DNA of 64,000 bases from Gnetum montanum (Eukaryota; Plantae; Gnetophyta), in the NCBI GenBank assembly GCA_015680685.1, contig MNCI01000751.1, forward strand, positions 186,001-250,000, in the 5' to 3' direction. Shown here one piece after another: positions 23,248 through 54,655 of the stretch (positions are counted from its first letter, which is position 1; each line of letters starts with the position of its first letter). Position numbers and translations under genes: made by a program. The notes below the pieces were generated by a model. That model was not told the DNA's origin. It made no database searches and saw only the letters and a list, made by a program, of their open reading frames with translations.

Positions 23248-23349
23248 GGCATGTCCCTAATTTACTCCTTTAGTTCTTTTGTCTTTAGTACTTTTGTTTG
23301 TATAGTTTTTATTTTGCATTATGTGTACTTTTTGCATTAGTTATGCTTT

Positions 23350-24744: not shown

Positions 24745-24844
24745 CCTTATTGGGTCCTATTTAAGTCATGATGCTATTACATCAAAGAGAGGATCCTTAT
24801 TGGGTCCCATTTAAGTCGTGACACTATTACATCAAAGAGAGGAT
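24745..24844 (+). repeat. Tandem duplication of ~51 bp
   Basis: CCTTATTGGGTCC(T/C)ATTTAAGTC..GA..CTATTACATCAAAGAGAGGAT twice. Confidence 0.9.
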
Positions 24845-27860: not shown

Positions 27861-29199
27861 GAAAGAATGCAAAAATTCTTAACTTTCTAGTTATACTATC
27901 AAGGATGCCACAAAGCCTGAAAACCAACGCGAGACACCTACAAAACCCTTGCCTTGTTTCGTCACCTAGAACACACAAGAAACCCCTATTACATGACATG
28001 GAACACAAAGTGTCAAAAACCCTTCCCCATGTGCTATGCGAAATGGGACACGTGAAACCCCCATTTTGTATCGCTGCGTAGGATGCAATAGAACCCTTGT
28101 CTCACCTTACTTTGCTTAGCACTAGAGGCTTGTGATGAAACCCTTGCCTATTGCTGCAACGTAGAATGCCATCCAAACCCTTCAAAAAAAAAAACCAACA
28201 ACAGAAAATGTGATCTATGATGCCTGTGCTATTCCTAGCCATGGTGGCGGTGACGGTCGCCACGGTGTGATGGTCATGGCAAGGGTGGTAGCCATGGTGC
28301 AATGGCCATGATGGCCATGGTAGCCATGGTGTGCTAGCCATGGTGGATATGGTGGCAACAATGGCCCCTACTTAGGGCAAGTTGCCCCCAAAACCCCAAG
28401 GCATAAATGTGTAATAGGCAAAAAGGGAACAAAAAACCTTGAAGGCAACATGACGGCCTACTTGGCAGATGGTGCCTCCTGATGCTCTTCAATGCATGCC
28501 CTAGGAAGATGTCATAGGGTGTGCTTGCTTTCATCCACATTGGCAAGGCCAAGGTGTCTATGCTTGCTTCTATGCACCATTGTCTTGCTATCAAGCTTTG
28601 GCTTGTCAGTTGTCATGCTCTATAATTCCTACGCTCTACCCTAGATCGCGCTACACTTTGGACTATTAGCTTTGATAGTGGGAATGACAAGTTTACCATT
28701 GGTAAACTCCTATTTATACCCTCTAGGGTTATATGACGCATCACCTTTCTAGGATGTCCCATGTCCCATGCATAACACGGGATGCTCTATGTCCTGTGCG
28801 TAACGCAGAATGTCCTGTGTCCCACGCATAACATAGAACATCCCATGTCTCGTGCAGTGTAACACCCAGAGTTAGAAAAATTCCTAACTTTTTTGGCTTT
28901 TCAAATTTTGAAGTTTTTTACATTTTTTTTGGTTGTGCAATAAACATTTAGTTTAGCCCCATGGTGGGCACCACTTCAAGCCTTTCAAGTTTTGCTTAGC
29001 TTTACACTTTATGCATAGCATGGTCCACTAAGACCTTAAATTGGCAATTTTGAGATACTGCATATTAATTTTTATAGCATTATTTTTTCTCATTTTATGC
29101 ATTTTTCTTTATTAGATAGGTACCACTTAATGTTTTTTTGGTTATTTTGTAGGATCACTTGGGAAAATGAGCACACATGAGAATCTTCGTTTGCCTTTA

Positions 29200-32100
29200 A
29201 TCTTGATTGGATCTTATGGAAGACTCATGAGATGCATGAACACAAAGCTTTTGGACTTCGAACTACCTCCTTCTGACCCTGACATAGCATCCTTAGAAAC
29301 CTCACTAGATTGGCCAGAACATCTAGTCCAAGCCCTAGACTTAGAAGCAGGTGACGTAACTGAGGATCCACTCATAGAAATCCCCATAACAACATGTAAA
29401 GGTGAGGTAAGAACATTGAAGCTTAGCTCTTTACTAAAGTCTCAAATACAATAGAGTATCTCTAGAGTCCTTAACAACAATATCAAGGTATTCACATGGT
29501 CTTATGAAGATATGCTAGGCTTAGACCCACACATAATACAACACAATATTATCTTAGATCTGTGTATCAAGCTAGTCAAACAAAAAGCTTGTAAAATCAA
29601 GCTAGAAATTGCATTAGTTGTCCGTGATAAAATCACTAAACTCTACCAAGTTGGGTTCATCTAGGTAGTCGAATATGTAGACTGGGTCTCAAACATTGTG
29701 GTTGTTCCCAAGAAAATTGGGGATATACACATTTGCATAGACTTCCGAGACTTAAACAAGGTAACCATCAAAGACAATTTCTCATTGCCTAGTATTGACC
29801 AACTTGTCAATACTACAGCTGGTCATGCCTTGTTATCCTTCGTGGATGGGTTATTGGGGTACAACCAAATTCATGTAAACCTAGAACACCAACTTACTAC
29901 TACTTTCATGACTCCTTGGGGGATGTTTTGTTATACAATGATGCCCTTTGGACTAAAAAATGCTGAAGCAACATACCAACGTGTGATGACCTACATCTTT
30001 AGCGACTATCTTCTAGAACGGCTAAATGACTACGTTGATGATATAGCGGTTAAGTCCAAGAAGGCTCATGATCATGCAAATGACTTGAACCTTGTCCTTA
30101 AACATTGCTGTAGGCATGACCTTTGCCTTAATCTAAAAAAGTGTGTCTTCAGTGTGAAAATTAATCGCATGTTAGTCTTTGTAGTATTGGAAACAAGAAT
30201 ATGTGTGGACCTTGATAAGGTCAAGACTATTATTAGCTTAGCACCACTAGCAAACCTTAAGGAGCTACGTAGATTGCAAGGTAGAATACAATTAATACAA
30301 AGGTTTATTGCAAGGTTGATTGATAAGCTACACCCAAAGCAACACCTACTTAAAAAGGAATAAACTTTGAGTGGACTGATCAATGCCAAGAAGCATTTGA
30401 CAACCTAAAAAAGGAGTTGGCCCACCTTCTAATTGTCTATCCACTGTAAAGAGATAAACCTTTCTACGTCTACCTTGCAACCTTGAATACGTCCATTACT
30501 TCCTTTCTTTATCAAAAGAGAGATTATGGTTCTAAAATTCCTATTTACTACCTAAGTCATGTGCCAATAGCTCATGAGGCAAAATACAACAATGTGGAGA
30601 AAAACTATCTTGCCTTAGTTTTTGCATTTAAAAAATGAAGACACTACCTCTCTCATAGTCAAGTCAACATCATTTGCAAGAGTAATATACTTAGGGCCAT
30701 TACAACCAACATATATGAAAGTAGCATAATATTCAAGTGGAAAGCAATAACCATGGAGTTTGACCTGCATTACATAGCATAGTCATCCATAAAGGGGTAA
30801 GCAATAGCCATGTAACTCACAGCTTCACCCATGGACGATCAAGTAACAATAGATCCAAAATTCCCAGACGAGCATGTTAGTAGTAGAAGCTCGGTACTTG
30901 CAGACTTTGAGGCGATTTTACACTTTGATGGTGCTTCAACCACACAAGGTGGTAGTGCCACTACCTTTATCACATTTTCCTCTGGAGAGATTTGACCTTT
31001 TGCATACCACTTTGCATTTCTTTGTATAAACAATGTAGTGGAATACAAAGGTCTACTTAGAGGCATTCTAGCATCTCAAGAGTTAGGGATCCAAAATATA
31101 GTAATTCGAGGTGATTCACAACTGGTCATTAACCAAGTCACAAAGGTTTACACTTGTAAAGCACAACACCTACAACCTTACTATGATTTAGAAAAGCACT
31201 TATTGAAACAATTTGCAACCATAGATGTCCAACATGTCCCCCACAATGAAAATTCCATAGTTGATACACTAGCTACCTTAGCCTTAAGTGGATCGACAAA
31301 TATGTTGTCTACTTTGCCCACTTCAATAATGGATTACATTGAACCTATAATGCACACAAAAAGTATTGCATCCATAAGTACACCTCATGCCTAGGAATGG
31401 TATGACGATATCAAGGCATACCTCCAATAGGGGGAGTTCCCACAAAACTCAACATCTTCTTAAAAGGACACAGTGAAAAAATGATCATGGTAGTATATCC
31501 TCATAGCTGATAGTGCCTGATGTCGTAGATCTTATGATGAGATACTGTTAACCTACATTAGCAGCAGTGAAGCACAAAGGATCATTGACCAAGTCCATGA
31601 GGGACTATGTGGAGGGCATATAGCTACCAAGGCAATGGTGGAAAAAATTAGACATCTAGGCTACTACTAGCCTTATATGGAGTGTAATTGCGTCTCCAAG
31701 GTTAGGACATGTGACATGTGTCAATGGCATGGGAATCTAATGCATGTGTCCCATACTAAACTGCATACTACACAAATCAAATGGCCATTTCAACATTGGA
31801 GGTTGGACATCATAGGGCCCATAACACCTAAGTCTTCCACAAGACATAGCTTCATTATTACCACAATTGAATATTTCATGAAGTGGGTAGAAGCTATCCC
31901 CCTTAGGAAGACAACATCTCAACAAGTTTGCAAATTTATTCTTGAAAACTTGATGACCTGATTTGGTCTCCCTATGGCTACAGTAATAGACAACAAGCCA
32001 CAATTTAGTAGTTCAGAAACCAAAGCCTTCTATGGAAACCTCAGCATCAAACAATCCTTTTTATCACCATACTACCCTAAGGCAAATGGCTAAGCAGAGG

Positions 32101-32638
32101 CTACAAATAAGGTCATTGCCAATCTCCTGAAGAAAATGCTTAATAGTAGTAAGCGACGATGGCACGAACAACTAGTCTACACATGTTGGGCCTATTGCAC
32201 AACATGTAGAACTACAACAGGTAAAGCACCATATAGTCTTGTGTATGGATTTGAAGTAGTGTTGCCTTTTGAATTGTAGGTCTTGTCGCTTTGCGTGATC
32301 CTCTGGAACTTTATGGATGAGGCTCAAAACAATGAGTCAAGAACCATTAATCTCAACTCTATGGAGGAAGAGCACATCCAATTCTTAATTACATCGAGTG
32401 GTACCAATAAAAGCAACAACAAAAGCATCACTACAATCTATACCAATGGCGAACCAAGTAAGGGGACCTGGTCCTGAAGGCTATTCGCGAGCCCGCGAAC
32501 AAGTTCTCGGCTAACTGGGAAGGGCCTTTCTTGGTCATTAAGATGTATGAAAATGAAGCCTTTAAGCTTGCTGATTTAGATAGCAACGAGTTCACCAATC
32601 CTATCAACCACTTGTACCTGAAGTCGTATTACACCTAA
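29200..32638 (+). pseudogene. pol: RT-RNase H-additional (archaeal-type) RNase H-integrase of A
   Basis: CIDFRDLNK, GYNQI, MPFGLKNA, YVDD (RT); LHFDGAS, NNVVEYKGL, RGDSQLV, NSIVDTLA (aRH); HEGLCGGH...CDMC, LDIIGPI, KWVEAIPL, WEGPF (INT). Confidence 0.96.
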
Positions 32639-32679
32639 CATGCAGTATCGCATCAACAATAAAGCAAGGTAAGCAGAAC

Positions 32680-33015
32680 ATCCGCTATGACATTAAACTA
32701 GCATAGAATGTCTGTTATGATGTTAAATTAGCATAGAACATCCACTATGATGTTAAATTGACATAGATCATCTACTAGTATGTTAAACTGATACATAATA
32801 TCCTTAGGCTATGACATTAAATTGACACCCATAGAATGATCTACTATGACCTTAAACTAGCCATCGACCGTCCACTATGATGTTAAAATAGCATAGTTGT
32901 CTGCTAGGACCTTAAACTAGCATAACATGGTCAACCCGAACCTTAAACTGGGATCATGGTCTGCTGAGACCTTAAACTAGCACATCCAGTAGTCTACCAA
33001 GACCTAAAACTAGGT
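32680..33015 (+). repeat. 3' UTR tandem array, ~11 units of ~30 bp
   Basis: Core CTATGA(C/T)-TTAAA(C/T)T(A/G)GCAT with variable linkers. Confidence 0.9.
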
Positions 33016-34081
33016 TTGCAATTTAGCATCTACGGTTCAACATACATGGTTCTGCGAACAAGCGAGTAAGAATACTTTCAATCTTTCATTACTTGCCCAT
33101 GCCTCTTGGGTAGGATGGGGGTGGGGCGTTGCAGTTTCAAAATGAAGTTTGGATCATCAAGGAAAAACCATTTGGGACATTTGCAACATCGCTGTCCCTA
33201 GCATCTTGTTAATCTTTTGAAGATGCCATTTGGCATCTTGTTGACCTTCCAGAGCTACCACCACCACCGCCAATCATCTTGGTCATAACTCTCATCGTCA
33301 GCACCTCCTGCTGGAGTTCTAGCAGTATTTTGGCCTAGCCACAGTGCTTTCATCCTGTAGCGTCACCATTATCAAAGTCTGGAAGAGCATTCAACATCAT
33401 GGCTCTTCACCTTGCAACTAAATTTCCTGGCTCCCACCTTTGGTGGGAATGCCTGAGCACATGCATCACCATTACTCCTAGCCTTTTGAGTGCTCACTTT
33501 TGGTGTGGTTGCTGGAGCTTTTTAGCCTACCACCGCTAATGCTTGCACTAGCCTTCCTGCTTTGGACATTGCACATACCTAACACAACACTCGTAGCCCT
33601 TGTAATATCCTGGGTAGAAAAGACTTCAGCTTCATCTCACATGATGGTTATTTTTCCTATTTTCTCTATGTTGTGTTTGTAGGATGAAGCCTAGGTGGCA
33701 TTGTCCAAGGATGCGCTTCACTATGATAACAAGACATTACATTGTTCTGATGTGTCTGCTTTGGCTCACCTAACTACTTAAGAGTCACACCCCTCTTATC
33801 CTCTCAGCCAACCTAACCTCTACCTCTTGATCTTACAATTTCCCACATCCCTTGTAAGCTTCTCCAATGCCTATGGAACCCTTTCTTGCATTTAGCTATT
33901 GAACCCATGATAGACGTAACACAACTTATCCCATGGGGAGTCTTTGTGGGTTGGTCAAAGTCCCGAACGGATGTAACACAACTCATCCTAGGGAGGAAAC
34001 ACCTATCCTACAACTATGATGCGGTAGCCTCTAAGTAAGTTCATTTGGCAAAAAAAATTGTAAAAAAAATAAAATAAAAAG

Positions 34082-34087
<6 letters not shown>

Positions 34088-34140
<53 letters not shown>
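34088..34140 (+). repeat. (GA)n microsatellite
   Basis: Perfect GA run. Confidence 0.98.
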
Positions 34141-34144
<4 letters not shown>

Positions 34145-34596
34145 ANGAAAAAAAACAAAAAAGGAGAGGAAGAGAAAATAAAGAAGAAAAGAAAATGGGA
34201 CTAGCTAAACACCCAAGTTAATTGGCATAGTTGCTGTCTTGCAATTGGTTTGGCCTTGGATCGACCGTCTCATAAGCACTTCGATAAGAGGTTGAAATCC
34301 AAAGGGTAGGACACCTTTGCATGCTAACTCCCTCATAAGCGCTCTGATGAGGGATTATTCTATGGCAATAGGCTCTCATGGCATTGCATCCAATAGTTAT
34401 CCTTTCCATCGATTGTCCCCTAATCCATCTTCTTGAATTTATGCTTTGTTCCCTACCACACTTCATGTCCCTAGCACTCTCAAGCATAGCAAAGAATTAC
34501 CCAAGCAGGCACTAATGAATAGTGTTGGTGTCATGTTCATCATGGTGTTTCGTAGTCTTTGTCAAAGTCTCTTAGGTTAATCCTCCAAATGTTGAT

Positions 34597-34605
34597 AAAG
34601 AGGGG
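34597..34605 (+). promoter_or_regulatory. Polypurine tract of A
   Basis: AAAGAGGGG ending 4 nt before the 3' LTR; identical tract in B. Confidence 0.85.
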
Positions 34606-34609
34606 CTAG

Positions 34610-36054
34610 TGAAACACCACTAATTTTGGGCTTCTGCAACTCAATAGTATATTTTTCTAAGTGTCAAAGCTTAGGCAAAATTTTTCTAAGTTTTGTGTCA
34701 TGCTATGTAGTGTAGACAATGTAGCACACTAGAAGTCCTGCTGTTTGCAAAATTTTGCTAAGCCTATCTACTATGCTCCCTAGCACAGCTAGCATAGCAC
34801 ATGTTTCCAAGGCCAGTTTACATGAATGTCAAGTTAGAAGCGGTCAAAAGGGCACTGAGGATGGACTAAATAGTTCGGCAAATTTTCTATCTCTTGGGCT
34901 ATCAGGCTTGCTATGCTCTTCAGCTTGCCCAGCTTGACACTTGTCCTAGTTGCTAGGCCACCTAAGTGCCAAGCTAGGAGTTGTCAAAAATGCTCAAGAT
35001 GAAAGAAACAGTTTGGAAAATTTTCTATATTTGGGCCTATTACACTCTGCTACGTTGCATAGTGTAGATAGTGTAGCATAAGTTTTAGGGCTTAAATTTT
35101 TCTAAGTGTTGGACCAAACATGGAAGGTGCATTTGGTAATTTTTTGACTTTTGAGGCTACTTGTCGTACTTCATCCTCAGAGTGTGATTAGCATGCCATT
35201 GAAAAAATTGCAAGTTTTGTGAAAATTCATCCAAAAATTGGAGTTACACTCTACTACGCTGGATAGTGTAGATAGCGTAACAGAAGTTCTAGGGTCAAAA
35301 ATTTTCAAAATATGGAACAAAGAGTTATCAAGCCATTCTGACATGGGAGATGCATTTTCTGGCTTTTAAAGTTTCCTACCCTACTGCACCCTAGAGTGTG
35401 ATTAGTGTGCCATGAGAAAAGATTTTAAATTTTGACAAAATTCACTAGAAAATGGGTGCTACGCTCTGCTACACTGTGCAACATAGACAATGTAGTAGGC
35501 CAAAAACCTTAAATATTTTCTAAGTTTTCACACTATGCTTTGTCACATTGGGTAGCATAGACAGTGTAACACTTGGAAAATGCCTCCAAATGTCTCTAGA
35601 AGCCCTCAAAACTCAGCATTCACCTTAATTTTAGCTCTGGCATCTCTTCGACGGCCAAAATCAACAGTTTGCTTTATTTTTGTAACCCCTAGTGATCCCC
35701 AAAATTGTCCCTATGCTTGACCCTACTCAGAAGAGGAGGAAGATGTAGTCCTAGAGCATAGGCTCCTAATTTGTAAATTGTAGTAATTTCTTATTTCTAT
35801 TATCAATATGCATTGGTACACTCATGTTGTTATGTATGTCCCATTCTTGCTTATCCCAGCTCCCACGTGTGATGCTTTGAAAACATTGTTTGCAAATGGT
35901 TATGTACACCACGTAAGTCCCTATCTGATTGGCTAGACTATTTAGGGCATCCCATTTCTATTTTCTCCAACATGACCCTCCCATGGACTCGGGATTAGGC
36001 TATACGCTTGACGACCTGTCGATGTTCCAGCCACTGATGTTTTTGGATGCTACA
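34610..36054 (+). repeat. 3' LTR of A (1445 bp, with an internal ~640-bp deletion)
   Basis: Colinear with the 5' LTR except that ~17965-18600 is absent. Confidence 0.95.
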
Positions 36055-38626: not shown

Positions 38627-40310
38627 TATAGCGACCGAAAATGTCAACGGCTGGAAAACACCGAGGGGTCGTTGGGCACGATAGTTTTGACCTCGTACCC
38701 ATGGGAGGGCTATGCTGGGTGTGAGTGGATATGGGGCACCTTGAATAGTCTGGTCGATCAAACAGGGACTTAATTGACGTCTATATAGCCTTTTGCAAGA
38801 TATAGTTTTGAAAACAGGAAAAAAATGCCAAGTAATGCTTGAAAGTAAATAAAGTAGAAAAAAATAGTGCAAAGCGCAGTAATAAGTAGGAAACAAAGTA
38901 AAATGCAGTTAGGAAAATGCATCGCTTCGAAGCTACAGGTTTTCTCTGTCAAGGTGGATACAGTTGATTGCACAGCATGGCAGAGTGTAGAGATCTCAAG
39001 AGTAACCAAGACATGCAAGCAAAATAGGTTGTGCACTTGGGCATGGACTTGGGTGCTGACGATGCGGGGATTCTACCAAGGTGGTAGAAGGGGGATGGAA
39101 CAAAATGCCAGCTAAAAATGCTAACTATTTGTAGTGTCAAATAGAAAGCTTACAATGCTTGATGCTAGAATGTGCTGGGAAGAGAACTTGAGTGCCAGAG
39201 GAGAAGTTGAAGGATCCAGAAAATATTCCAACTTTTGAATGCTGCTTGTTGGAAAAAATTCCAAACTTCTTTGAATGCTACTACTTGTAAGAAATTCCAA
39301 CCAGACGTTTTTTTGAATGCCGCTTGTTGGGGTATATATAGGAATAAGGGCATGCAAAAGGGGTGGTTTGGACGCCATGTGCCTTAGGCCCATGTTGACT
39401 TGCTTGTGCTGCATGTGCCATGCATGATCATTGGACTTGCATGACTATTGTAATGCAAGTTTGCCATGCCGTAACTATGAGCCTACCATGCCGTAATTGC
39501 ACAGTCAGTGTCTAGAGATGTGTGCCAACGGTCCAATTAGGTGAAGTGCATTGATGTCGCACAACCACCCGCATGCCTTGCTGTGCTTTGTAGCGTAGCA
39601 TGCTTGGTATAGCGTAGCACCTTATCGCGTGTTCTGCTACATGTGTATTGCATGCTTGCTATGCTATGCTACGCTACGTAGCATAGCGACTGGCCTTAGT
39701 CGCAAAAACTTTGCCAACTTACAAACTTTGCTTCTTGTGTTGCGAGACTCGCAAACTTGCTAATTCTCCCCTTTGAGTTGCCTTTTGTCTCTTCCACATG
39801 ATTGCTATGCCTCACTGCACCATGTAGCTCAGCGTAGCATAGCAACAGACATGGTCCCCACTTCCTGACAGAAAGGGACATTGTTGAAGGACTTGGAGTT
39901 GAGCGAGGGAACTGGTTGTATAGCTCTTGCCATGCTACGCTATGCTGCGTAGCATAGCATAGCATGGCACTTTGTTCCACAATTGTTTCCTGAAGCTTGC
40001 TACGCTACATAGTGGGGTATAGCGTAGTGTAGCAGACTTTGTGAATTTGAAATCTTACCGAACTGTTCCATGCATCTTGAACGCTGCTGTCAACTTCATG
40101 CACTATCTTTGAGTAGGCTGTCGGCTGGGCAAACTACTTAGGTAGATAGGTGGGATGATTTGTAGAGCCTGTTTACATCTAAAGTAGAAAATTTTCCGAA
40201 TAGGCCAGCCCGAATTCAGAATGTTCTCCTCCTGAAGAACTGTCGTTTTGCTGTGTGAATTGTAAGGCTTGGTGAAGCAAGAATGACTTCGAAGTTTTTG
40301 GGGTATTTCA
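38627..40310 (-). repeat. 3' LTR of B (1684 bp)
   Basis: Colinear with 55291-56995; minus strand reads TGAAATACC...GCTATA. Confidence 0.95.
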
Positions 40311-41668: not shown

Positions 41669-44600
41669 TCAGACGTAGTATGGCTTAAGGTACGAGTGAT
41701 TTACCAGGTTGGTGAACTCGTTGCCGTCCATGTCCGCCAGCTTGAAGTCTCCATTCTCAAAGGCTTTAGTGACCACGTAAGGACCTTCCCAGTTGGCTGA
41801 GAATTTTCTCACGTGCTCATGGGAAGCCTTGAGGACAAGGTCTCCCTTCTGCACTGGCCATCGATGCGGGTTTGCACAGTGCTTCTGCTGCTGCTTACTC
41901 TGGTAGTGCTTGATGCATCTTAGTGTCTGCACATGGTCCTCCTCTATTAAGTCGAGGTCGATGATTCTCAACTTGTTGTTTTGGGCTTCACTCATGATGT
42001 TGGATAGGATCATCCGGAGTGATGGTATCTGCAACTCAAGAGGCAACACAACTTCAGATCCATAAACAAGGTTGTAAGGGGCCTTACTTGTGGCAGTCCT
42101 GCACGTCGTTCAGTAGGCCCACAGAATGTAGAGGATTTGCTCATGCCACGACCTCTTACTATTGTTAAGCATCCGCTTTAGCAAGTTGATGAGGGACTTA
42201 TTTGTAGCCTCCGCCTATCTGTTCGCCTACAGATAGTATAGTGAGAAAAATGATTGTTTAATTCTTAGATTGCTATAGAAGGTTCAGGTTTTTGTACTGC
42301 TAAACTATGGTCCATTGTTGGTCACAATAGTCATTGGAAGCCCGAACCTTGTTACGATGTTATCAAGGATGAAATGGAAGATTTGCTGAGACGTCTTCTT
42401 CCTTAGGGGAATAGCTTCCACCCACTTGGTGAAGTACTTAGTGGTAGTGATAATGAAACTATGCCCTACGGAGGACTTAGGTGTGATAGGCCCTATGAGG
42501 TCTAGTTCCCATCGTTGGAAGGGCCACATGATTTGCATTGGATGCAGGTCCGTAGGTGCTATGTGTATGAGATTTGCGTATCTCTAGCACGTGTTGCACG
42601 TCTTGACTTTTGGCAGGCAGTCACGCTCCATGTGGGGCTAGTAGTACCCTAGACATCTAATTTTTGTAGCCATAGCCTTGGGTGCTATGTGTCCACCACA
42701 CAGCCCCTCATGCACTTCATTAACTACCTTCTACACTTGCTCGCCACCCACGCATGCTAGCAATATCCCATCATAGGAGCGTCGACATAGGGCATCATTT
42801 CCCATGAGCACGTATTGCTAGGGGCATGCTTACAGATTACATCTCTCTGGGCAGATGTCAATCCACTTGGGGGTTTGCCATGCTGTAGATAACTTTTAAC
42901 ATTGGAATACCACTCCTGGGTATTCGTAGCACTGACAAAGGCCACATGTTCCACCTGAGTGATAGGCTCTACGCATTCTATAATCGAGGTTGGCAGGTTT
43001 TCCAAGGAATGTGATGGAATGTTTAACACAAGGGTAGCTAAGGTGTCTGCCACAGTGTTCTCGTTGCATGACACATGTTGCACATCTGTGGTCACAAATT
43101 GCTTAAGCAGGATTTTTGCTAGGTCGCAGTAGGGTTGCAGGTGCGTAGCCTTGCAGGCGTAGACCTTGGTGATTTGATTCATGACTAGTTGTGAATCTCC
43201 CTAGACTACCAGGTGTTGTATGAGCGATGCTCAGGTAGTTAAGAGGCCTCTGAGTAGCCCCTTGTATTCTGCCACATTGTTGGTGCAAGGGAATGTAAAA
43301 CGATAAGCGGATGGATGCATTTCCCCAAAGGGGAACGTGATGATGGTAGTGGCGCTACCTCCTCGCACGGTTGAGGCACCGTCGAAGTGTAAAGTGGCTT
43401 CAAAATGTGATGGGACGATGTTGACATTGCTAACGTATTTATCTAGGAATTCGGGGTCTATGGTTGTCTGGTCGTCGACTAGCGAGGCCGTGAGTTGGGT
43501 CGCTATGGCTTGACCCTTTGTCAACGATTGACTTACATAGCGTAAATCGAACTCCATGGTTATTGCCTTCCATCAGGCTATCTTGCTACTTTCGTATAGG
43601 TTGTTAGCAATAGCCCAGAGTATATTACTTTTACAAATGATATTGGTTGTACCGTGGAATAGGTAATGCATCCACTTTTTTAGTGCGAACACTAAGGAAA
43701 GGCAGTTCCTCTCCACTTCGTTGTATTTCGCCTCATGCGCTATTAGTGCGTGGCTCAGATAATACACTGGTATCTTAGAATTGTCATCTTGCTTCTGACA
43801 TAGTAGTGCTACAACAGATGTGTCAGCGGTGGCGAGGTAGATAAAGAAGGGTTTATCCCTTTGTGGCGGATGCATAGTCGGGAGGTGTGAGAGTTCCTTC
43901 TTCAGGCCATTGAAGGCTTGTTGACACTAGGTTGTCCACTCAAAGTTAACCCCTTTCTTTAGAAGATGTTGCATGGGATGTAACTTGTTGGTCAACCTTG
44001 CTATGAACCTTGGAATGAATTGCACTGTACCTTGCAAACCATGTAACTCCTTAAGGTTTGTGGGAGGCGCCAGGTTGACGATGGTCTTGAGTTTTTTAGG
44101 GTCCACCCATATTCTAGCCTCTGATACTACAAACCCTAACATGTGTCCAGTTTTCACCCCGAAGATGCACTTCTTAGGATTGAGGCGTAATTCATGCATT
44201 CGATAGCATTTGAGGACTACCCCTAGATTGCGTGGATGATCAGCTGCCTCCTTGGGCTTGACTGCTATATCATCCACGTAGTTGTTTAACGTTTCTAGGA
44301 TGTAGTTACTAAAAATGTAAGTCATGGCTCACTGGTAAATTGCTCTAGCATTCTTGAGCTCGAAGGGCATCATAGTGTAGTAGAAGGTCCCCCATGGGGT
44401 TATGAAGGTTGTTGACAGCTGGTGCTTTGGGTTAATGCAAATTTGGTTGTATCCGGAGAAACCATCCATGAAGGATAGCAGAGCATGACCATCCATGGTG
44501 TCGATGAGCTGATCAATGCTTGGAAGTGGGAAGTTGTCCATGATTGCTGCCTTGTTCAGGTCCCATAAATCTATATAGATTTGTATTCCTCCCATTTTCT

Positions 44601-45088
44601 GTAAAACCACAACGATGTTGAACACCCACTCTGAATATTCAACCACACGGATGATACCAGCTTGGTGATTTCATCCCTCACGGCTGGTGCGATTTTTGGC
44701 TTAACTTTGCAAGCCTTCTACTTGACTGCCTTCATGTGTGGGTCTAGGATGATGTTGTGCTGAATCAGCCATGGATCTAGACCCAACATGTCACTGTACG
44801 ACCATGCGAAGACATTGATATTATCTTGCAGAATCTTGGCTACATTTTTGTGCATTTGTGTATCTAGGAGGGAGCTGAGTCTTAACGTTTTCACCTCCCC
44901 CTTTGACATGGTCATAGGAATCTCAATGAGAGGGTCCTCAGTTACATCCCTAGCCTCTATGTCTAGTGCTTAGACCAGATGCTTGGGCCAATCTGGGGAT
45001 GCTTCTAAGGCTGCTACTATGCTAGTTGTGGTCGATCCCTAGTCGATCATGGTGGGGTTCAACTATCTCGTGAGCCTGCCCTGTGGCC
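41669..45088 (-). pseudogene. pol: RT-RH-aRH-INT of B
   Basis: FMDGFSGYNQI and YVDD (RT); LHFDGAS and TNNVAEYKGL (aRH); LDLIGPI, KWVEAIPL, WEGPY (INT). Confidence 0.96.
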
Positions 45089-45889
45089 CTGCTAACGTTA
45101 AAGACATGGAAAGGTTGTGATGGGTTTCCATCTCTTGCTTGTCCTATCATCATGAGATAAAAGCTTGGTTAAGAGGTGTCTTTTGGCAGAGATTATGTGT
45201 AACGAAGGTTTGCAAAGCAGCGATGAGATGCAACTTGTGAAGTATGATGATTGAAAGTTTGCCAATTTAGGGTCATGGTTGACTGCCAAGGTGCAAGAGT
45301 GTAGAACTGCTAAAGGTGTAAAATTGCTAATGCAGAGTGCAAAGCTGTGTCGACATATGCAAATGCCAAACTGCTAGTTTAGTGTCATTTCGGACTGCCA
45401 AATTGTAACATACAAAGTCTTAACATGCAAAATGATAGTATGCAAAACGGGAAACCACGGGTATGAGAAGTGCCAAACCGTCAACGTGAAAATATGAACT
45501 GCTATCATGAAAACATGAAACTGCTAGAGTTGTGACACTGCCAATGTGGAAGAAGATGCAAAAATCGCCTATGTAAGCATGTGGTGTTGTTAGTTTAATG
45601 TCATTGCGGACTACAAACGTAATAGGTTGAAACTTCTAGTTTAGGGTCTTTTCAGACCCTTAGAGGTGCAACTATGCTAGGATTGCTAGTTTAAGGTCTT
45701 TTCAGACCCTTAATCAAAAAAAAAAATATATATTTTTTTATTTTTGGAAAAGTAAGTGGTTGGTTTGAAGTGTGTCAAAGCTTTAATGCCAATAGTGCTA
45801 GGATGTCGTGGTGAGCATGGTACGTTGTACAGCATGCTTCGCATTAATTGGAGAGAGAGCGGCAAGTTTCCCTATATTATCATTACGAC

Positions 45890-46048: not shown

Positions 46049-49000
46049 ATGGCTCTTAAGACTCATCTAGTGCTCGCAAAGGTTGAGAAGGCGAAGAAGA
46101 CCCTAGGGCACGTGACACAATCACGCGTTGCGATGTGGAAGAGCACACCGTTGACCCATTAGGTTACTGTGCTTCCTTTGCTTTTTTATTTTGTGCTTTC
46201 TGTTGTTCTCTACTTTTGTTTTGCATCCTATTTTCTTTGCGTTCATTCTTGGTTGCCCATGTTTTCTGTGGTCGCATCATTTTGGCCTTTGCATCGCCCC
46301 TGTCACCATTTAGGCTACGATAGATGCATAATTGTTATGTCATAGTTGCATGCAAGGTCACTTAAACTGTCACTGCTACAGTCATCATAACCGTGGGGGC
46401 TAGGGCTATTTAAGTTGCTTGACCTTTGCATGGCGTGATGTAGGACCCTCAAGAGGGTTAGGCTATGCATTTTTTATTAGGGAATGTTGTCGATTGCTCT
46501 GTTGCTACGCTAAGATTTTTGTTTTGCATGTTTTTTCTATGCTACACTTTTGTGTTCTTGCTATGCTATGTGCGAGGAGAGGGTTATGCTATGCCACATG
46601 CATGAACTATGAGTTGTTGTTACACTGCATGTGTATTGCACTTAGGCATGATGCTAACGCTCATTGATGGGTTGCATAGGACGAGGCTGAGGCCTAGGCT
46701 GATTGTTTTGGAGATTAGAGGGGTCCTGTGCCATGTGGGCAGACCTATGGCCAATGTTCCTCCTCCCTAGATATGTGTGGGGGAGCGGGGGTATGGTTCA
46801 GGAAGGGGGCATAGGGCTTTTTGCAATTCCTTCTTGACCACTTTAGTGTGATCGTTTGGTCCTCCATGGAGGAGGAGGAGGCGTCCAGTATAAAAGAAGC
46901 CATTTTGCCTAGGGCGAGTCGAGGCATTCTAAGGTTTTTGATCGATGGGGCGATCATGAGCAGGCAAGGGGAAGGATCTAGTCAGCACCCAACAGGGTGA
47001 AGGCGCTTGGTTTGGATCTGGAAAATGCTTGAGTATAGCTGCTACCACCATTTCAACACATTGTTCCTTGCATGTTTTATGATGATGTGCTTTCAGAATC
47101 CTCAAGGAACTGTCTATTGTGCCGGCGGGTGGGTTTTGCAGCTTTGTTCTACCATGTTTGTGCGATGCTGGCCATAGTGGCCTAATGCTAATAGTATTCT
47201 CTTACTATCAGGTTCTTCATCAACGAGGATGGGGTTCATGACCTACCGGATTTACTAGCTACAGCACAATTGGCCTTGTAGGAGTTCTCTTCTGCTGAGA
47301 ACCTTCAGGCAGGCGTGATTGGTCAATGCGAGGGTGAATAATACACCTACCTAGATGTATATTCTTCCCTCTACAATCAGTGCAGGGGGTAGGATTGGCT
47401 AGATGAGATGTGGATGAAGCACTTTAAACTGTTTATGGTTGAATAGGCTTTGGTTGCACTCCCAAAGTTCCCACTGCCATACCGACCTGGTAGGTTGAGT
47501 GGTAAGTGCCACATGTGTAAGTGTCTTTGCAATTTTTGAATTCTCTACATTTTTTGCTAAATGTTCTTTGTGGAACTGTTGTAGGGGCAAAGAAGCCTCA
47601 AGAGGTGACAGTGGTTACCGCCGAGGCACAGGGGGCGAATGTCTACTTCAAGTATGGGGAAGTAGAGATGAGCCAACACTAGTTGAATGGTGGGGCTTTA
47701 GAATCCTTGGTCCAGAACATTGAAAAGGTGGGGCTTCTGGATCTATTCTTGAGCTTGAATCTAGGCGTTCCTGCCACCGAGATGCTCACCCTAGTCGAGT
47801 CCTTCTTCGACAAAGTAGGCCGCTTTCGCCTGCGTGTGAATGGCATGCGAGTGATCATTGACATCAATGACCAACTGTTCGTAGACCTCTTCGGTGTCCC
47901 TGCTGAAGGTATTTTGATAGGGTCAAAATCCAAGACGGAGTTGACCCTCTAGAAGAAGGACCTTCAAGAGTGGTTAGGGCTCACCGAGGAGTGTAAGGGG
48001 CTCCCTATGAACAAACTCAAGAAGGAACCCACCAAGGAGTTCTACCCTATCTTCCGTGCTCACACATTCCCCTAGCTACTCACCCAGGGAAAGGTCCTGG
48101 GGCTTGAGCAGGCCTAGGTCATGCGTGAGGTTATGGAGGAGGGGACCCATTACAACTGGGCTGAGCCCCTGTGTAAAGGATTGTGGACTGAAATCTTGGG
48201 GAACTGTATGAAAATGGAGTCCTGTTCCAACATCCACTACACCTTCTACATAGGCTATCTTAAGTGCTTCGCGGAGTTCTTGGTGGTTTGGGAGAAAGGA
48301 GGCTAGGTTGTGCAAAATCGTGACCAGATTTTCAGACCATGGATTCACCAGGTCTTTCGTACCATCTGAGCCGAGGATCCCCCAGAAATGATTGGGGGGT
48401 CATTTTCTGTAACAATGAAGGACTGGGTGGCCTGCAATGTTCATGGCTAGAATAGTGTAGGCGAGATGCCCCCTGGCATGGACGGTAGCGTATCACAGGG
48501 TGGACGTCTCATGGTTGAGACTATGGCCAACAAGTTGCCGCAGAAGAGGCCTTCCCTAGTGAAGGAAATCCTTTGTGTGAGGGAGGAGGAGGGGTGAAGA
48601 TTGCAGCTTAAACTACAGAGGACGCGACCTCCTGTTGGTAAGTCCTTTCGTTCAATGCTTACTTTGTTGTTGTCTGCTACGCTAGGTGGCGTAGCGTAGC
48701 ATAGCATCTACCTTAGGCCTACTTGGTTTGAAATAATTTAAATGCATTTTTTTGACCACTAGAAGAAAAAGAACAACGTGATGAAGAGGTGTTGGCCCTT
48801 AGGATAGAGATAACAAATAAAGATGCGGGGGCCCCAGTCTTAGAGAGAAGGGCCCTGGTCGAAAAGCAGAGAGCTCATGCAGCTAGGGCAGGGGCTCTCG
48901 TTATTAGGGAGAATCATCCTATTGAGGAATCTTCCTTGAATAAAAAAGATGCTAGTCTCCTCAAAGGAAAAGCACCAGCGCATGAAGAGGAGGTCCACAG

Positions 49001-50434
49001 GGACCTGGGAGGAACTTCTTGCCAGGCTTCTGTCATCGTTTTACATCATCCAAAAGAGAGACCGGAGCCAGGCGTTGGTGAGTTTGGCAATATGTCTACC
49101 TTGTCTTAGTCCGTTTTGTTCATTGCTAATGTGTTTGGCTATGTGACAGATGCTATTGCTGATGCCACGGGACCTCCTCTAGTTCACGTAGGATCCTAGG
49201 TTGAAATCCCCAACAAATTCATGTATATGCAGGGGATTGTTGATGACATGATTAATCACCTTCAACAGGTGGACCCTGAGGTGGGTAAGTAGTAGTGCTA
49301 TTTGCTCTCATGTTGTTATGCTAAAATTTCTTGCATTTTCTGCTCGTGTTATGCTAACATGACTAGTGTGTTCTTCATGTCATGGCAGCTTCTCAACTCA
49401 AGTGGGACCCGACACGACCTTTGAAAGTTGGTGCTATGTTCACATTCCCATTGGACGTGACCAAGGTGTCTTGTTGTGCATACGACAAGGTCTACAAATG
49501 TGCTTTGCACTCGGTGCACTCCCTGTGGGAGTTCAAACGTACCAACGAGGAGCTATGGAAGTGAGCCCAAAGGGCAGAGTAAAGAGAAGTTGATCTAAGG
49601 GCCAAGGTGGAGGACCTCAAGTTGAGGAACGAGTTTCTCATGGCCCGTAGCACTAACAACGAGGACTGGTGCATAGCCGTGGTTGACCACGCCAAGTTTT
49701 GGATAGTTGCACGTCAGAATGTCGAGACTACCCACAAATTGATAAAGCAGCAGATGCATATGGACCTACTATATCAGAAGTGTTAGGATCTTAGAGACAT
49801 CAACGCGAAGATTTTCGAATGGGGGAACACCTAAAGAAACCATAAATATATGTATAAACAGGAAAATGCCACCCATTGTAAATTATAAGAAGACGTTGCT
49901 GTGAAGGCATTTATGTATGAAGCATTCATAAATGCCATTGACGCTTCTGAGGCCTATACCAGGTTTAGAGAGCAGGTCAAGGTTACGAAATCTCCTGACT
50001 GGAAGGTGGCCCTTCCCACAGGAGAGACTGCGACCGTCTCCTTTTCTTCAGGTATGATAATGTGGACACTCGTCGAAAGGGAGAGAGCTGCTGTAGCAGA
50101 TGCTACATTAGGCAAGAGGCATTGGGTTGATATCATAACAGAGGGGGTCTAGCGTCATCTCAAGATTGGTTTAGACCAGGTACCCTTCGAGATGGACCCG
50201 GGCCCTTCTCAGGTTAGCCACTTTCTATCATGTTGATGTTTATGCTCGGTTGTAGTTTGCGTTTGTTGCCCTAATTGACCACTTCACCCCTATGATGCAG
50301 GCCCTAGGTGATGGCGCGACACCCGTAGAGGGAGGAAATGAAGAGCTGGCAAGGGACAAAGCAGGGAAAGGTGATGCACAAGGAAATGATGCGGGAACGG
50401 AAGGTGAAAACAACACAAATAGAGACAACCCATG
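46049..50434 (+). pseudogene. Antisense multi-exon accessory gene of B (~7 exons): NIF/FCP1-like domain, plant-transposon accessory domain, coiled coil
   Basis: Approximate exons 46049-46162, 46680-~47501, 47584-48637, 48763-49077, 49150-49284, 49389-50212, 50301-~50434; GT...AG introns that are T-rich, several with CTAA(C/T) branch sites. Confidence 0.82.
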
Positions 50435-50844
50435 ACTGCATGGGATTTTTTTTTGAAAATTTGAAATTTTGGATTTTTTTTTGCAACTTTGTGTAATGAA
50501 TTTTTCCAACATTGAAAAACAATAGTTTTGAATAAAGCTAGAGGATTTTGCGCTAACTTGTGTATTGCATACGTGCGTTTTGTATAAAATGTTCATGCTT
50601 TCATGTGCTAGTTTTAGGCCATCTCGGGCCATTGCGTAACATTCCAAAGAGATGATGCATCAACCACTTGAACAAAGGCTAACTGGTAACTTATGCTAGT
50701 TTTAGACCATTTTGGGTCATAGCATAGTTTTAGGGCATTTCGGGCCGTTGCACATTGCTAGTTTTAGGCCGTTTAGGGCCGTAGCGTGGAAGCATATGAG
50801 TAGTGTGTGGGCAGGAAGCAGTGGGGTTGCTATGCTAGGCGAAG

Positions 50845-53800
50845 CTACTTCTTGACCCGATGCGGGTTGAGTGAGACATAAGGCCGAGACATTCTGCTAG
50901 GGCCTTTGTCTACGTCATCGCCTCCCTCTTGGAAGGGCAACTCAGTCCATGTGTTTTCGTTTTGAGGATCAATTTGTTGAGCTGACCCCTCTACCGGGTA
51001 GTTAGTGTAGATTGCTGTAGGTGCTTCATTCTTAGAAGTTATGACTTTTGAGCCTTGTTCCATGCCTACATTGTGAATTTCCTGTGTTGCTACATCGTCA
51101 CCGTGGATCACCACTTCTCTGCCTATGTACGACAGGTGGATCTTCTGGTGTATGGGTGAGGAAACAACCCTAAGCTATGCCAACCATGATCTTCCCAGGA
51201 TCAGGTTAAACCTAGGCATTTCCTTGACCATGATGAACGTTGCGCTTGTGGGGAACTGGTCCCCTGCTATGAAGTTCATGTGAACTATGCCCTTCACCAT
51301 GACCTGTGCCCCATTGAACGACCTTAGGCATGAGGTCATCATGGATTTGATCTGGTTGACCAAGCCTAGCCTATCCACAAAGGGGAAGGGGATGACATTC
51401 GTGGCGGCCCCATCATCAATGTGTACCCTTTGAATCCAGTGTTGGCCTACCCAAATTATGATGAAAAGGGGCACTGCAGTCACCTGAGCCCCCTCAGGGC
51501 CTTCCCTAATGGCATCGTTGCGAAAGGTTAGTTGAGGTTGTTTTGATCGTGTAGGCGTGGAGGGAAGCATGACTGAGTAGATCATTTCTTCCTCCACTGG
51601 AATGTCTTTGTTGACCGGTGTCACTGTCAACATGCAGATTAGAGCCTAGCGGTGTGGGATAGATGTCATGATTAGGTCGTACAAGCTCAACGTAGTGTTT
51701 TTTTTTGTTTTAGAGCTTGTTTGACCTATATGAGGGCGTCCAAGAAGTCTTGGCTGCCCCCTTGTTTGATGCCTTCTTCCTCTTCTATTCACCTCAGAAG
51801 AAGAACTTCTCGAGGAGAGGAAACTTTAGATCTGGGTTTAGATCCTCGTTGGTAGAGTGATGTAGGCTGTGTAGTCGTGTCGACCTTCATCTTTGGTGGT
51901 GAAGGTACAGGTGTGTGGGGTGAAGACGTAGGCTTGGAGGTACCTTTGATGATACTTTCCTTCAATGTCTCGCCTGCAAAGTAGACTTCTTGCCTTACGG
52001 GGCGAGAAGGCTGTTCAACTACGTTGCGTGGGGTAGTGGCCGTCGAGGGCATCAGTTCCCTAATGACGAATCGAGCTAGAGGTGTTAATGGGTGGGATCG
52101 TGTGGCTCCGCTAATAGGTGAGGCAAAGGTGGATGCCCGTGGTGGGACTTTTAGGATGAATGGCTACTGTGAGCTTGGACCAGCTATTGGTGGTGATGGT
52201 GCACTACGCTGAGGCACACGGTCCATGAATGGTCACCAGGGTGGCCTAGAATCACTGTCAATGCTGATGGCGTTGATTATGTAACTGGCATTGTTGGCAT
52301 TGAGGGGATCTATGTAGACATACATAGATTAGTTTTCAGGGTGCACTGGGTTGCTTTCGTCCGACACTAGCTTCCCTTGGTCAATTAATATTTGGATGTC
52401 GTCCTGCAGCGCCAGACAGTAATCAGTGTTGTGACCACACTGTTGGTGGTAGTCACAAAACTTGTCTAGCCTGAAACCCCTAGGAACTAGAGGCTCATTG
52501 GGCAAGACCAAAGAGGGGTTCCTAATGAGCTCACAGTAGTGTTGATGTCTCTCATTTGCTTCTTCCAACATATGCTTGTGTTGGATGTATCCCACTACCA
52601 ATAGTTGCTTCAGGAGCTTCGAAGGTTTGAGAGGTAGTGGGTGTACTTTGAGCGATCTTTGTGCTCAAAGTTGGGTTTGGTTTGCACAGATGTCTCAGGT
52701 GTAGCAAGTTTCAGTACGTGGACCTGCTTGGGCATGGGGCTAGCTGCAGGTTTGGCTGATTTCTTGCTGTTCTTACTACCATTGTTGCTAGGTTTGGGCT
52801 TGGCCTCAGTCGCCACAATGGCTACTGTTGTTTTTTGGGCCTTACCCTTGTCCTTCTTTGCAAAGGTGTTTTTGTAAGTGATGTAGGTCAGGTCTTTTCT
52901 TGTCTCGGCCACGTCTTGTATGCCCTTAGTTTGAGCGAAAGCTTGACTAAGAGAGCAAGGAGTGAGGTAGTATAGTTTGGACTTGATGAAGTCATTCATT
53001 GCATCCTTAAAGATGGCCAATAGATGGGCCTTTGCGATGGGCTCGTAGATTTCGTTAAGGGTTGCAGTCCAACGTTGAATAAAATTTTGGACTGGTTCTA
53101 GCAGGTCTTGCTTCACGCTCATCAACTGATCCAACATGGTTTCTGGCTTCAAGTTGTACTTGAAGCATGTCATGAATTGGGTTAGGAGTTCTTCCAAAGT
53201 TGAAATGGATGAGCATGGTAACATGTAGTACCAGTCTAGGGCTTTCTTGGCTAGGGACATGGCGAAGATGCGAATGATCGTGTGCAGCCATTGTTGCAGT
53301 AACAAAGATTCAGACCTGAAGGTGAAAAGATGTGCATTGGGATCTCCCTCCCCATCGTACTTCGTGAAGTATGCGAGAGACATCCCTGGGGGTAGTGTCA
53401 ATGCAGGGATTACAGGGCTGATGGGGTCATCCTGGTAGAAGTCTATGATTTTCTCCGTGTTAGACCCAGCAGCCTTAAGGCGTTTGATTTTCTTAGTGAG
53501 GGTCTAGATGAGTTGGAACGCTTGGTCCAAACCTGGTGACGTTGTAGATAGTTGGGGAATTACGGAGGCAGCTCCCACCTATGGCATGATGGGGGCAGGA
53601 GCATGACCTATTGGCGGTACCATCACGATGACCCCCACGAGCGGTGCTATTTGCATTGTCCACCACCCAGTAGGTGGTGTTGTTAAGGCAACAACCGCGG
53701 GTTGGGCTGCTGGATGGATTGCTTGTGTCATCGATAGCATAGACCATAGCCCCATGTTAGGTTGTACCGTTTGCGAGGCTTGGTGGGTTTGAGAGCAAAC

Positions 53801-54655
53801 GTAGTGAGACATCTGCGATGATTGTGGAATAGGTGAAGAAGCAAATGGGGTCCACCATGCAGACGGGCCAGGGACCACCACAATGGATGGAACGGATGTG
53901 AATGTAGGAATGGCAACAGAAGTTACATACGATTGTGAAATAGGCACGGTATGAACATGTGGTAGGGTAGCTGCGTTTGGCATATGGTGTGCTATAGGGA
54001 TGGACTGTTGAATAGTTTGTAAAGGGATAGTAGTTGCAAATGAAATAGGTGAAATAGGCGAAAGAGGGCATTGAAACCCCATAGGATTGGCATGGCTACC
54101 CATAGCGGATGTAATCGTAGGTTGCAAAAGCGTAGGTGTAATCACGAAGGGAGCAGTGATAGGCAGTGGCTTGGCTCAGAAGGACTGGGTAAGAGGGATC
54201 AGAACGGGGTTGGTTGGACCTCCCTTGTCTGATTGGGAATCAAGTTCCTCTTATCCATCCTAGAAAGCGTCATCTTGGTTGGACGCTGTGTGCCATTACT
54301 CCCTAAGCCTAGCCAATTGGATTAATTGGTCTAGAAGCCTTTGGTCTACTTGTGTTAAAGGTAAGGAAACATCGAGAGTAGGAACAAACTCCTTCCTGTT
54401 GCAGTAAGCGAACTCGAAGCTGTGTTTGTCCTCAAGTTTGTGTACATCCAAGGGAAGATTTTCTTGCACCTTTGCATAGAGGAAACTATAACGTTCATGT
54501 TGCTGGGCCAATCCCTTAGGTCCTTGATTTTGGATTCTAAGAGATCGACGCATCTCCAACATCTAGTTCAGCAGTTGTTTGGCACTAGTAGTGCCTCTAA
54601 CTACGATCGGAACTTCGACATTGAAGGTGTGAGTGGCAGTGTTCGAAAAAATCAT
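50845..54655 (-). pseudogene. gag: gag-protease of B
   Basis: FTKYDGEGDPNAHL, ALDWYY, FCDYHQQCGHNT; RVHIDDGAATNVI and FNLILGRSWL. Confidence 0.93.

What the first reader, a model, noticed from the sequence alone, without database searches (positions are those of the whole stretch)
46680..47125. Retrotransposon-encoded FCP1/SCP (NIF, UBLCP1-like) HAD phosphatase-like domain with catalytic Asp residues replaced (element B)
Seen: manual translation across one frameshift and a few stops gives RPRLIVLEIRGVLC...VWFRKGA*GFLQFLLDHFSVIVWSSM...ILRFLIDGAIM...RRLVWIWKMLEYSCYHHFNTLFLACFMMMCFQNPQGTV. The ORF track misses it. Established: FCP1-homology/NIF phosphatases such as UBLCP1 have the ordered blocks LLVLDxD/NxxL, RPxxxxFLxxxxxxF/YxVxVWSS, FxxD, KxLxxIW and YxxxNTLxxDD...NP. 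All five blocks occur here in order with similar spacing. The DxDxT nucleophile motif reads E-I-R-G-V and the distal DD reads A-C. Inference: a captured CTD-phosphatase fold that became a pseudophosphatase, possibly a phospho-CTD-binding decoy or adaptor that manipulates host transcription or silencing. I do not know of this domain being described in LTR retrotransposons, but I cannot search the literature.
Basis: partly seen in the sequence, partly recalled or inferred. Interest (0 to 1): 0.93.

Follow-up and report, generated by a model that had tools for sequence, protein, structure and literature searches.

The report
Dead-phosphatase gene inside a retrotransposon
A plant-type jumping gene carries, backwards between its protease and reverse transcriptase genes, a broken six-intron gene whose first exon is related to NIF-family phosphatases but lacks their catalytic aspartates in both copies here, so it likely served the element as a non-enzymatic binding module.

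Summary
Window 46680-47128 is a decayed exon with real NIF/FCP1-family homology. Pfam NIF scores E 7.8e-4, below its curated cut-off. A profile of two window copies retrieved 25 proteins from 1.84 billion, and 23 of them are NIF. The nearest relatives are the uncharacterised D-x-N-G subfamily (plants, protists, metagenomes), not the CTD phosphatases FCP1/SCP1. The exon opens a ~1,060-codon, six-intron gene lying antisense between protease and RT of an 18.4-kb Tat-type gypsy element (B). A second, diverged element (A) carries the same gene at the same place with matching introns. Both copies lack the motif I and motif IV aspartates, yet the exon was constrained between them (pN/pS 0.48; pol 0.27). 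It was therefore probably kept as a pseudophosphatase, although five RNA reads from a relative show Asp at the nucleophile position. Nothing supports phospho-CTD binding specifically. No spliced reads were seen and the donor is unresolved. I found no paper describing this cargo or position. Earlier unchecked scan notes report NIF-like cargo in moss CACTA elements, not in LTR elements. Verdict: new variant of antisense accessory genes.

The parts
46680..47128 (+). Exon 1 of the antisense gene: NIF/FCP1-like domain (one frameshift near 46787, 3 stops). Motif I E-I-R-G at 46711-46722, motif II WSS, motif IV A-C at 47070-47075
   Evidence: constrained against the element A copy
47129..47211 (+). 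Intron 1 (83 nt, GT..AG, phase 2), same position in element A (85 nt)
47212..47489 (+). Exon 2, no family match
   Evidence: 48% aa identity to A over 60 codons, pN/pS 0.46; no Pfam hit
47585..48637 (+). Exon 3, ~350 codons; weak lead only to plant transposon protein PF20167 / ATHILA ORF1
   Evidence: 42% identity to A; Atlas 0.87 and 0.86, below its 0.9 mark; no Pfam or homolog hits
48763..49077 (+). Exon 4, charged and poorly conserved
   Evidence: phase-compatible GT..AG introns, 0 stops in 105 codons
49150..49284 (+). Exon 5
49389..50212 (+). Exon 6, conserved; looks coiled-coil-like by eye (no predictor run)
   Evidence: 41% aa identity to A over 222 codons, pN/pS 0.45
50301..50435 (+). 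Exon 7, ending in a stop codon
55291..56995 (-). Element B 5' LTR; 5-bp target-site duplication GCTAT on both flanks of the element
38627..40310 (-). Element B 3' LTR, preceded by a polypurine tract; LTR pair K2P 0.13
52300..54400 (-). Element B gag (broken; limits approximate)
   Evidence: Pfam Retrotrans_gag E 7e-4
50845..51699 (-). Element B aspartic protease region, ending in a stop
   Evidence: Pfam RVP_2 E 0.028
41700..45130 (-). Element B RT - RNase H - additional (archaeal-type) RNase H - integrase (broken; integrase read by eye)
   Evidence: Pfam RVT_1, RT_RNaseH, RVT_3; 64% aa identity to A over 1073 codons
27024..27472 (-). Homologous NIF-like exon of element A (two frameshifts); motif I E-L-V-A, motif III Lys kept, motif IV T-C
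16806..36054 (+). Element A, same layout (gag-PR, antisense gene about 27.5-23.8 kb, RT-RH-aRH-INT), target-site duplication CCTAT

Best explanation
This is the first coding exon of a now-broken, six-intron antisense gene of a Tat-type gypsy retrotransposon; it encodes a NIF-family (HAD) domain that lacks the catalytic aspartates and likely worked as a non-enzymatic binding module of an accessory protein serving the element. Shown: the homology, the gene structure, the shared position in two diverged elements, the missing aspartates, and coding constraint between the two copies. Inferred: the gene was transcribed from its own promoter upstream of RT, spliced, and made a ~1,060-residue protein (dead NIF fold, transposon-type middle domain, helical C-terminal part). 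That protein would use the former phosphate pocket or fold surface to grip a host nuclear partner and ease the element's expression or escape from silencing. The partner is unknown, and Pol II CTD is only one low-odds candidate. Odds: NIF ancestry about 0.97; catalytically dead in the common ancestor of A and B about 0.8; binding role that benefits the element about 0.55.
For: Homology; hhalign 99.5% over 143 columns (circular). Real spliced gene: 6 of 6 predicted introns in B are GT..AG, 72-125 nt, and keep one frame (22 stops including the terminal one in 1027 codons, against 64 and 66 in the other frames). In A, 4 of 6 introns show both sites, 1 only the acceptor and 1 only the donor. Constraint: 127 NIF codons, 49% aa identity, pN/pS 0.48 (95% 0.35-0.63), with 1 stop per copy among the aligned codons, against 0.60-1.52 and mostly many stops in the other five frames. 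The exon aligns far above shuffles, while the upstream 450 nt and introns 1-2 do not. Catalytic loss shared: Glu at the nucleophile position in both copies (Asp in 39 of 42 other domains); A-C and T-C at motif IV (Asp in 41 and 35 of 42). Relatives are transcribed at low level, and in run X11 the first-mate strand over 46570-47339 fits the antisense gene's direction (depth 3.4-9.9 against 0-0.2). Precedent for nuclear antisense accessory proteins with their own promoter: Grande gene23 (PMC7264820, parts 1-2 read).
Against: Only two dead copies were examined, and no intact copy or close protein relative was found. Five X11 reads from a related copy read D-I-A-G at motif I, with a 1-nt gap just upstream, so Asp occurs at the nucleophile position in at least one relative (table 7, my parsing). 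No spliced joint was seen in any of 4 RNA runs, and X11 reads cross intron 1 unspliced. Most laid reads are under 90% alike (153 of 175 in X11) and start at few places, and the oligo-dT runs show no strand bias. Constraint is weaker than on pol (0.48 against 0.27) and no stronger than on the other exons (0.34-0.53), so the fold may be kept only as a structural part. Pfam stays under its cut-off. No test bears on binding or on benefit to the element.
Confidence: 0.55

Rival explanations
1. The domain is kept only as a folded structural or oligomerising part of the accessory protein; the old active-site pocket has no ligand.
For: Constraint on exon 1 (0.48) equals that on the other exons (0.34-0.53). 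The element branch is very long (2.57 substitutions per column). Motif III Lys is Arg in B.
Against: The most conserved block between A and B (59% identity, WIWKMLE...NTLF...FQNP) spans motifs III-IV around the former pocket. Motif II Ser is kept in both copies and motif III Lys in A.
Confidence: 0.2
2. Active members of the family were atypical but working phosphohydrolases; A and B belong to a sub-lineage that lost activity, or the chemistry uses Asp/Glu plus Cys.
For: Five RNA reads show Asp at motif I. Enzymes with non-canonical motifs can keep activity (PMC13216928, passages).
Against: Those reads have Ala at motif I +2. No change restoring motif IV is among the 40 best-supported rows, although neighbouring changes carried by 7 of 8 X11 reads are listed (278 rows not shown). 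The A-C and T-C codons are several changes from Asp-Asp in both copies.
Confidence: 0.12
3. One reading: a decoy or adaptor that binds the phosphorylated RNA polymerase II CTD.
For: The nearest solved structures of the related subfamily are UBLCP1 (E 1.4e-12), CTDNEP1 and SCP1. The model's best structural match is SCP1, Z 7.0, rmsd 2.5 over 93 aligned residues.
Against: The nearest sequences are the DxN subfamily, for which no CTD activity appeared in the papers I read. From recalled knowledge, UBLCP1 acts on the proteasome, CTDNEP1 on lipin and Tim50 on presequences, so the fold does not imply CTD binding. The Z score is under 8 and the model was built on an alignment of NIF proteins.
Confidence: 0.1
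4. The antisense gene is a passenger, a host gene or DNA-transposon gene nested in the PR-RT intron and carried along without use to the element.
For: It has its own introns and direction. Earlier unchecked scan notes report NIF-like domains in moss CACTA second genes, a possible source.
Against: It sits at the same place in two elements whose pol differs at 36% of residues with saturated synonymous sites, and it was under constraint over that time.
Confidence: 0.05

Closest known systems
Antisense additional ORFs of Tat-clade gypsy elements: Ogre/TatIII PMD-coiled-coil eORFs, Retand TRP28 ORFs, maize Grande gene23 (PMC4408406 section 6 and passages; PMC6317226 passages and supplements 2-3; PMC7264820 parts 1-2; PMC11963269 part 1 of 5)
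   Same: Large Tat-type element with aRH between RH and INT, gag-PR separated from RT, and a conserved antisense accessory gene of unknown function with a helical C-terminal part.
   Different: Here the gene lies between PR and RT, not between pol and the 3' LTR or upstream of gag. It has six introns and no PMD or TRP28 Pfam hit, and it begins with a domain that has clear cellular homologs; PMC7264820 says such ORFs lack similar sequences outside transposons.
D-x-N-G subfamily of NIF/FCP1-homology proteins (plant 'FCP1 domain HAD' proteins such as P0005, P0018, P0053; fungal DxNxT NIF pseudophosphatases of PMC13216928, whose link to these hits is inferred from the motif)
   Same: All sequence blocks in order, 27-30% identity over about 140 residues.
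   Different: The element copies have also lost the first Asp and motif IV Asp-Asp, lack the LPW insert of seed-plant members, and form a long separate branch outside the land-plant clade in a quick tree.
UBLCP1, SCP1/CTDSP, FCP1, CTDNEP1, Tim50 (solved NIF structures)
   Same: Same fold family. Fungal Tim50 is a precedent for a NIF domain without DxDxT used non-catalytically (PMC13216928, passage).
   Different: No ubiquitin-like or BRCT domain was hit in the exons scanned; no catalytic motif; mobile-element context.
Ogre PR-RT intron (PMC6317226 passage)
   Same: gag-PR ends in a stop and is separated from RT-RH-INT by non-pol DNA.
   Different: Average 274 bp in Ogre; about 5.7 kb here, holding a whole antisense gene.

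Membership tests
NIF/FCP1-homology domain (PF03031) | Score above the Pfam gathering cut-off (21.8 bits) | tested here: not met
   19.6 bits, E 7.8e-4, on a single-frame piece lacking the first strand
NIF/FCP1-homology domain (PF03031) | Full-length sequence homology with ordered motif blocks | tested here: met
   23 of 25 hits are NIF, most covering profile positions about 3-145; hhalign 143 columns
NIF/FCP1-homology domain (PF03031) | HAD Rossmannoid fold | tested here: inconclusive
   Model pLDDT 72 built on an alignment with 13 NIF proteins; Foldseek gave nothing at E<=0.001; VIA top rows nearly all HAD, best SCP1 Z 7.0
Active FCP/SCP-type HAD phosphatase | Motif I DxDx(T/V) | tested here: not met
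   E-I-R-G-V in B, E-L-V-A-I in A; D-I-A-G in 5 reads of a relative
Active FCP/SCP-type HAD phosphatase | Motif IV acidic pair (DD) | tested here: not met
   A-C in B, T-C in A
Active FCP/SCP-type HAD phosphatase | Motif II Ser/Thr and motif III Lys | tested here: inconclusive
   Ser in both; Lys in A, Arg in B
Active FCP/SCP-type HAD phosphatase | Mg-dependent phosphatase activity or phospho-CTD recognition | not testable with these tools
   Needs an assay
UBLCP1 / FCP1 orthologs | Ubiquitin-like domain (UBLCP1) or BRCT domain (FCP1) (recalled) | tested here: inconclusive
   No such Pfam hit in exons 1-4 and 6; exons 5 and 7 were not scanned, the copies are decayed, and the 5' end of the gene is uncertain
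Ty3/gypsy Tat clade | LTRs, 5-bp TSD, gag-PR-RT-RH-INT order, additional archaeal-type RNase H | tested here: met
   integrase read by eye
Ogre/Retand subclades | aRH between RH and INT; gag-PR separate from RT | tested here: met
   against PMC6317226
Ogre/Retand subclades | Extra ORF 3' of pol or 5' of gag, with PMD or Transposase_28 | tested here: not met
   The gene lies between PR and RT; no PF10536 or PF04195 hit at E<=1. A 440-N gap at 41205-41644 hides part of the 3' region
Ogre/Retand subclades | Placement in the RT/RH/INT phylogeny | not tested
   No reference sequences were in hand; the Atlas gave only generic RVT_1 clusters
Ogre/Retand subclades | Primer-binding-site type (Ogre tRNA-Arg; Retand Lys, Arg, Asn) | tested here: inconclusive
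   A PBS-like motif follows both 5' LTRs; its resemblance to tRNA-Asn is recalled, not computed

The most novel reading that the evidence does not exclude
An undescribed Tat-type lineage carries, inside a giant PR-RT intron, a spliced antisense gene whose catalytically dead NIF domain traps a phosphorylated host chromatin or silencing factor. The same DxN-type NIF module would have been recruited independently by LTR and CACTA elements of non-flowering plants as a shared counter-silencing tool.
Probability: 0.2. Interest if true: 0.85.

Novelty: new variant of a known kind. Interest (0 to 1): 0.58.

Why it matters
The origin and function of antisense accessory genes in plant LTR retrotransposons are open questions; a 2020 review (PMC7264820) notes they have no clear relatives outside transposons. 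Here one domain can be traced to a cellular enzyme family and appears to have been kept after losing its catalytic residues, which gives a concrete biochemical handle: find what the dead pocket binds. The layout, a multi-intron gene nested backwards between protease and RT, is also outside the 5' and 3' positions used in current classifications, and ORF-based surveys (250-codon cut-off in PMC6317226) would miss most such spliced genes.

Tried and rejected
No whole genome is held, so no copy survey was possible. Word-index homolog searches with the NIF piece and with exon 3 gave no hits, nor did the metagenome scan (235 pattern matches, none confirmed). PDB sequence searches with the piece or the 4-row profile found no NIF chain (one unrelated row at E 0.34). 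The idea that exon 2 continues the NIF fold (an 'AENLQ' look-alike) was rejected: B is no better than shuffles (98 of 500 reach it), and A's 2 of 500 aligns elsewhere. Donor inference failed: the careful tree did not finish, and the quick tree puts A+B on a 2.57 branch with weak placement (11 near-duplicate cluster members and the 2 non-NIF hits with their cluster members were left out). The higher score with non-plant than with plant profiles (76.8 against 36.5 bits) is circular and was not used. The exon 3 fold was unusable (pLDDT 27). No RNA holder was listed by index, which is no evidence either way. Literature: searches (listings only) showed no paper on a NIF/FCP1 domain in a retrotransposon; searches showed none on an antisense gene between PR and RT; one search gave nothing on the plant DxN proteins. 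The eORF domain table of PMC6317226 (supplement 2, domains in at least 5 elements) has no NIF entry. Its element table and FASTA supplements were too large to read and could hold related elements. Subscription journals are mostly not searched.

Full report
Observation. A single-frame piece hits only Pfam NIF, E 7.8e-4, 19.6 bits, under the 21.8 cut-off.

Context. The stretch lies in element B, a complete 18.4-kb Ty3/gypsy element on the minus strand (38627-56995). It has LTRs of about 1.7 kb, a perfect 5-bp target duplication and LTR divergence K2P 0.13. Its order is gag, protease, 5.7 kb of other DNA, then RT, RNase H, an additional archaeal-type RNase H and integrase (integrase by eye). An extra RNase H between RH and INT marks the Ogre/Retand side of the Tat clade (PMC6317226, passages and supplements 2-3); I did not test placement by phylogeny. 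Element A (16806-36054, + strand) has the same layout, its own target duplication, and 64% amino-acid identity in pol. That the host is a land plant is inferred from the element type; no genome was held.

The gene. The 5.7-kb gap holds an antisense gene. In B, six GT..AG introns of 72-125 nt join seven exons into one frame: 22 stops including the terminal one in 1027 codons, against 64 and 66 in the other frames. Element A shows both splice sites for 4 of the 6 introns and one site for each of the other 2. The NIF-like block is exon 1 (46680-47128). The start codon is uncertain: A has a Met at the domain start, and the DNA upstream is not conserved. The product would be about 1,060 residues. 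The other exons have no family match; exon 3 has only a sub-threshold lead to PF20167/ATHILA.

Homology. A profile of four frame pieces of A and B was scored against 1.84 billion representatives. It gave 25 hits at E<=1e-3 and none at 1e-10; 23 of the 25 are Pfam NIF and 2 are unrelated. Named hits are plant 'FCP1 domain' proteins and a protist protein; many are unnamed metagenome or Logan records. A profile of the 23 scores B at 50.2 bits and two A pieces at 13.4 and 11.3, against at most 0.6 in 10 controls. hhalign gives 99.5% over 143 columns. These last two tests are partly circular. The relatives belong to a D-x-N-G subfamily: 35 of 42 domains have Asn at motif I +2. Their nearest solved structure is UBLCP1 (E 1.4e-12), then CTDNEP1 and SCP1. 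A model of the B piece built with 13 NIF proteins has pLDDT 72. Foldseek found nothing significant, and VIA ranks HAD folds first (SCP1 Z 7.0, rmsd 2.5, 93 aligned), which is compatible but not independent. No close protein relative was found, so the element gene seems unannotated in the collections searched. The donor is unresolved.

Catalytic state. Both copies have Glu at the nucleophile position, Arg or Val at +2, and A-C or T-C in place of Asp-Asp; motif II Ser is kept in both and motif III Lys in A. The codons are several changes from Asp, and Glu and Cys are shared, so the loss most likely predates the A/B split rather than reflecting decay after insertion (inference). Against a family-wide loss: five reads of run X11 from a related copy read D-I-A-G at motif I, with a 1-nt gap just upstream (my parsing). 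No motif IV restoration is among the 40 rows shown (278 hidden). Fungal DxN NIF proteins are already classed as pseudophosphatases on motif grounds (PMC13216928, passages), so the donor may never have been a canonical CTD phosphatase.

Selection. Over 127 aligned NIF codons, A and B are 49% identical with pN/pS 0.48 (bootstrap 0.35-0.63; corrected dN 0.45, dS about 2). Pol gives 0.27, the other exon blocks 0.34-0.53, and the other five frames of the NIF codons 0.60-1.52. The exon aligns far above shuffles; the upstream DNA and introns 1-2 do not. The exon was therefore under protein-level constraint while the two lineages diverged, apparently without the catalytic residues.

Expression. In 4 RNA runs of the same species label, 45-175 reads were laid per run, mostly under 90% alike, so they come from other copies. 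In X11 the first-mate strand over 46570-47339 fits transcription in the antisense gene's direction, if the library follows the usual convention. The oligo-dT runs show no bias. Related reads lack two of B's stops and show a canonical donor at intron 1, but no spliced joint was seen and X11 reads cross intron 1 unspliced. Present-day productive expression is not shown.

Mechanism. The best reading is an accessory protein, made from the element's own antisense spliced gene, with a dead NIF fold used for binding. Grande gene23, nuclear and transcribed from its own promoter, is the model (PMC7264820, parts 1-2). The binding role and the benefit to the element are inferred from retention under constraint; no partner is indicated. 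The CTD-decoy idea is possible but has no specific support. The rivals are a purely structural role, an active sub-lineage, and a passenger gene.

Comparison and novelty. Antisense extra ORFs are well known in Tat elements (PMD-coiled coil, TRP28; PMC4408406 section 6; PMC11963269 part 1), located 3' of pol or 5' of gag. Ogre has a short PR-RT intron. I found no report of a NIF domain in a retrotransposon (searches; supplement table) or of an antisense gene between PR and RT; two large supplements could not be read. Earlier unchecked notes of this scan describe NIF-like cargo in moss CACTA elements and an antisense spliced enzyme gene in another LTR family; none covers this DNA. Verdict: a real feature and a new variant of a known kind, interest 0.58.

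Noticed in passing
window 45130-50845 (B) and 23230-29150 (A): Pol is cut off from gag-PR by 5.7-5.9 kb. Both elements have a GT at the same place after PR and an AG plus a Met just before RT (strong pyrimidine tract in A), which suggests a giant Ogre-like intron or a separate pol start. The phases do not agree in A.
   Followed up: partly
window 50560-50790 (B) and 23350-23620 (A): Both elements carry a related short tandem array (unit about 21 nt, by eye) between the protease stop and the 3' end of the antisense gene.
   Followed up: no
window 54741-55106: Three tandem copies of about 122 nt just inside the 5' LTR of element B.
   Followed up: no
window 41205-41644: A 440-N gap between integrase and the 3' LTR of B; the long ORFs listed at 40983-41800 are artefacts of it.
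   Followed up: yes
window 16806-18888 against 34610-36054: Element A's LTRs differ by a gap of about 640 nt; K2P 0.16 and 0.19 in the two aligned parts.
   Followed up: partly
proteins P0026 and P0050: Unnamed records with an intact DxN NIF domain inside a long protein; P0026 also has a weak Ulp1 protease hit (E 0.0085), an arrangement that looks transposon-like.
   Followed up: partly
proteins P0003, P0005, P0013, P0022, P0027: Plant proteins (four named as Asteraceae) with tandem NIF domains whose second copy has degenerate motifs (for example E-M-D-G and E-N in P0013), a cellular parallel for catalytic loss.
   Followed up: partly
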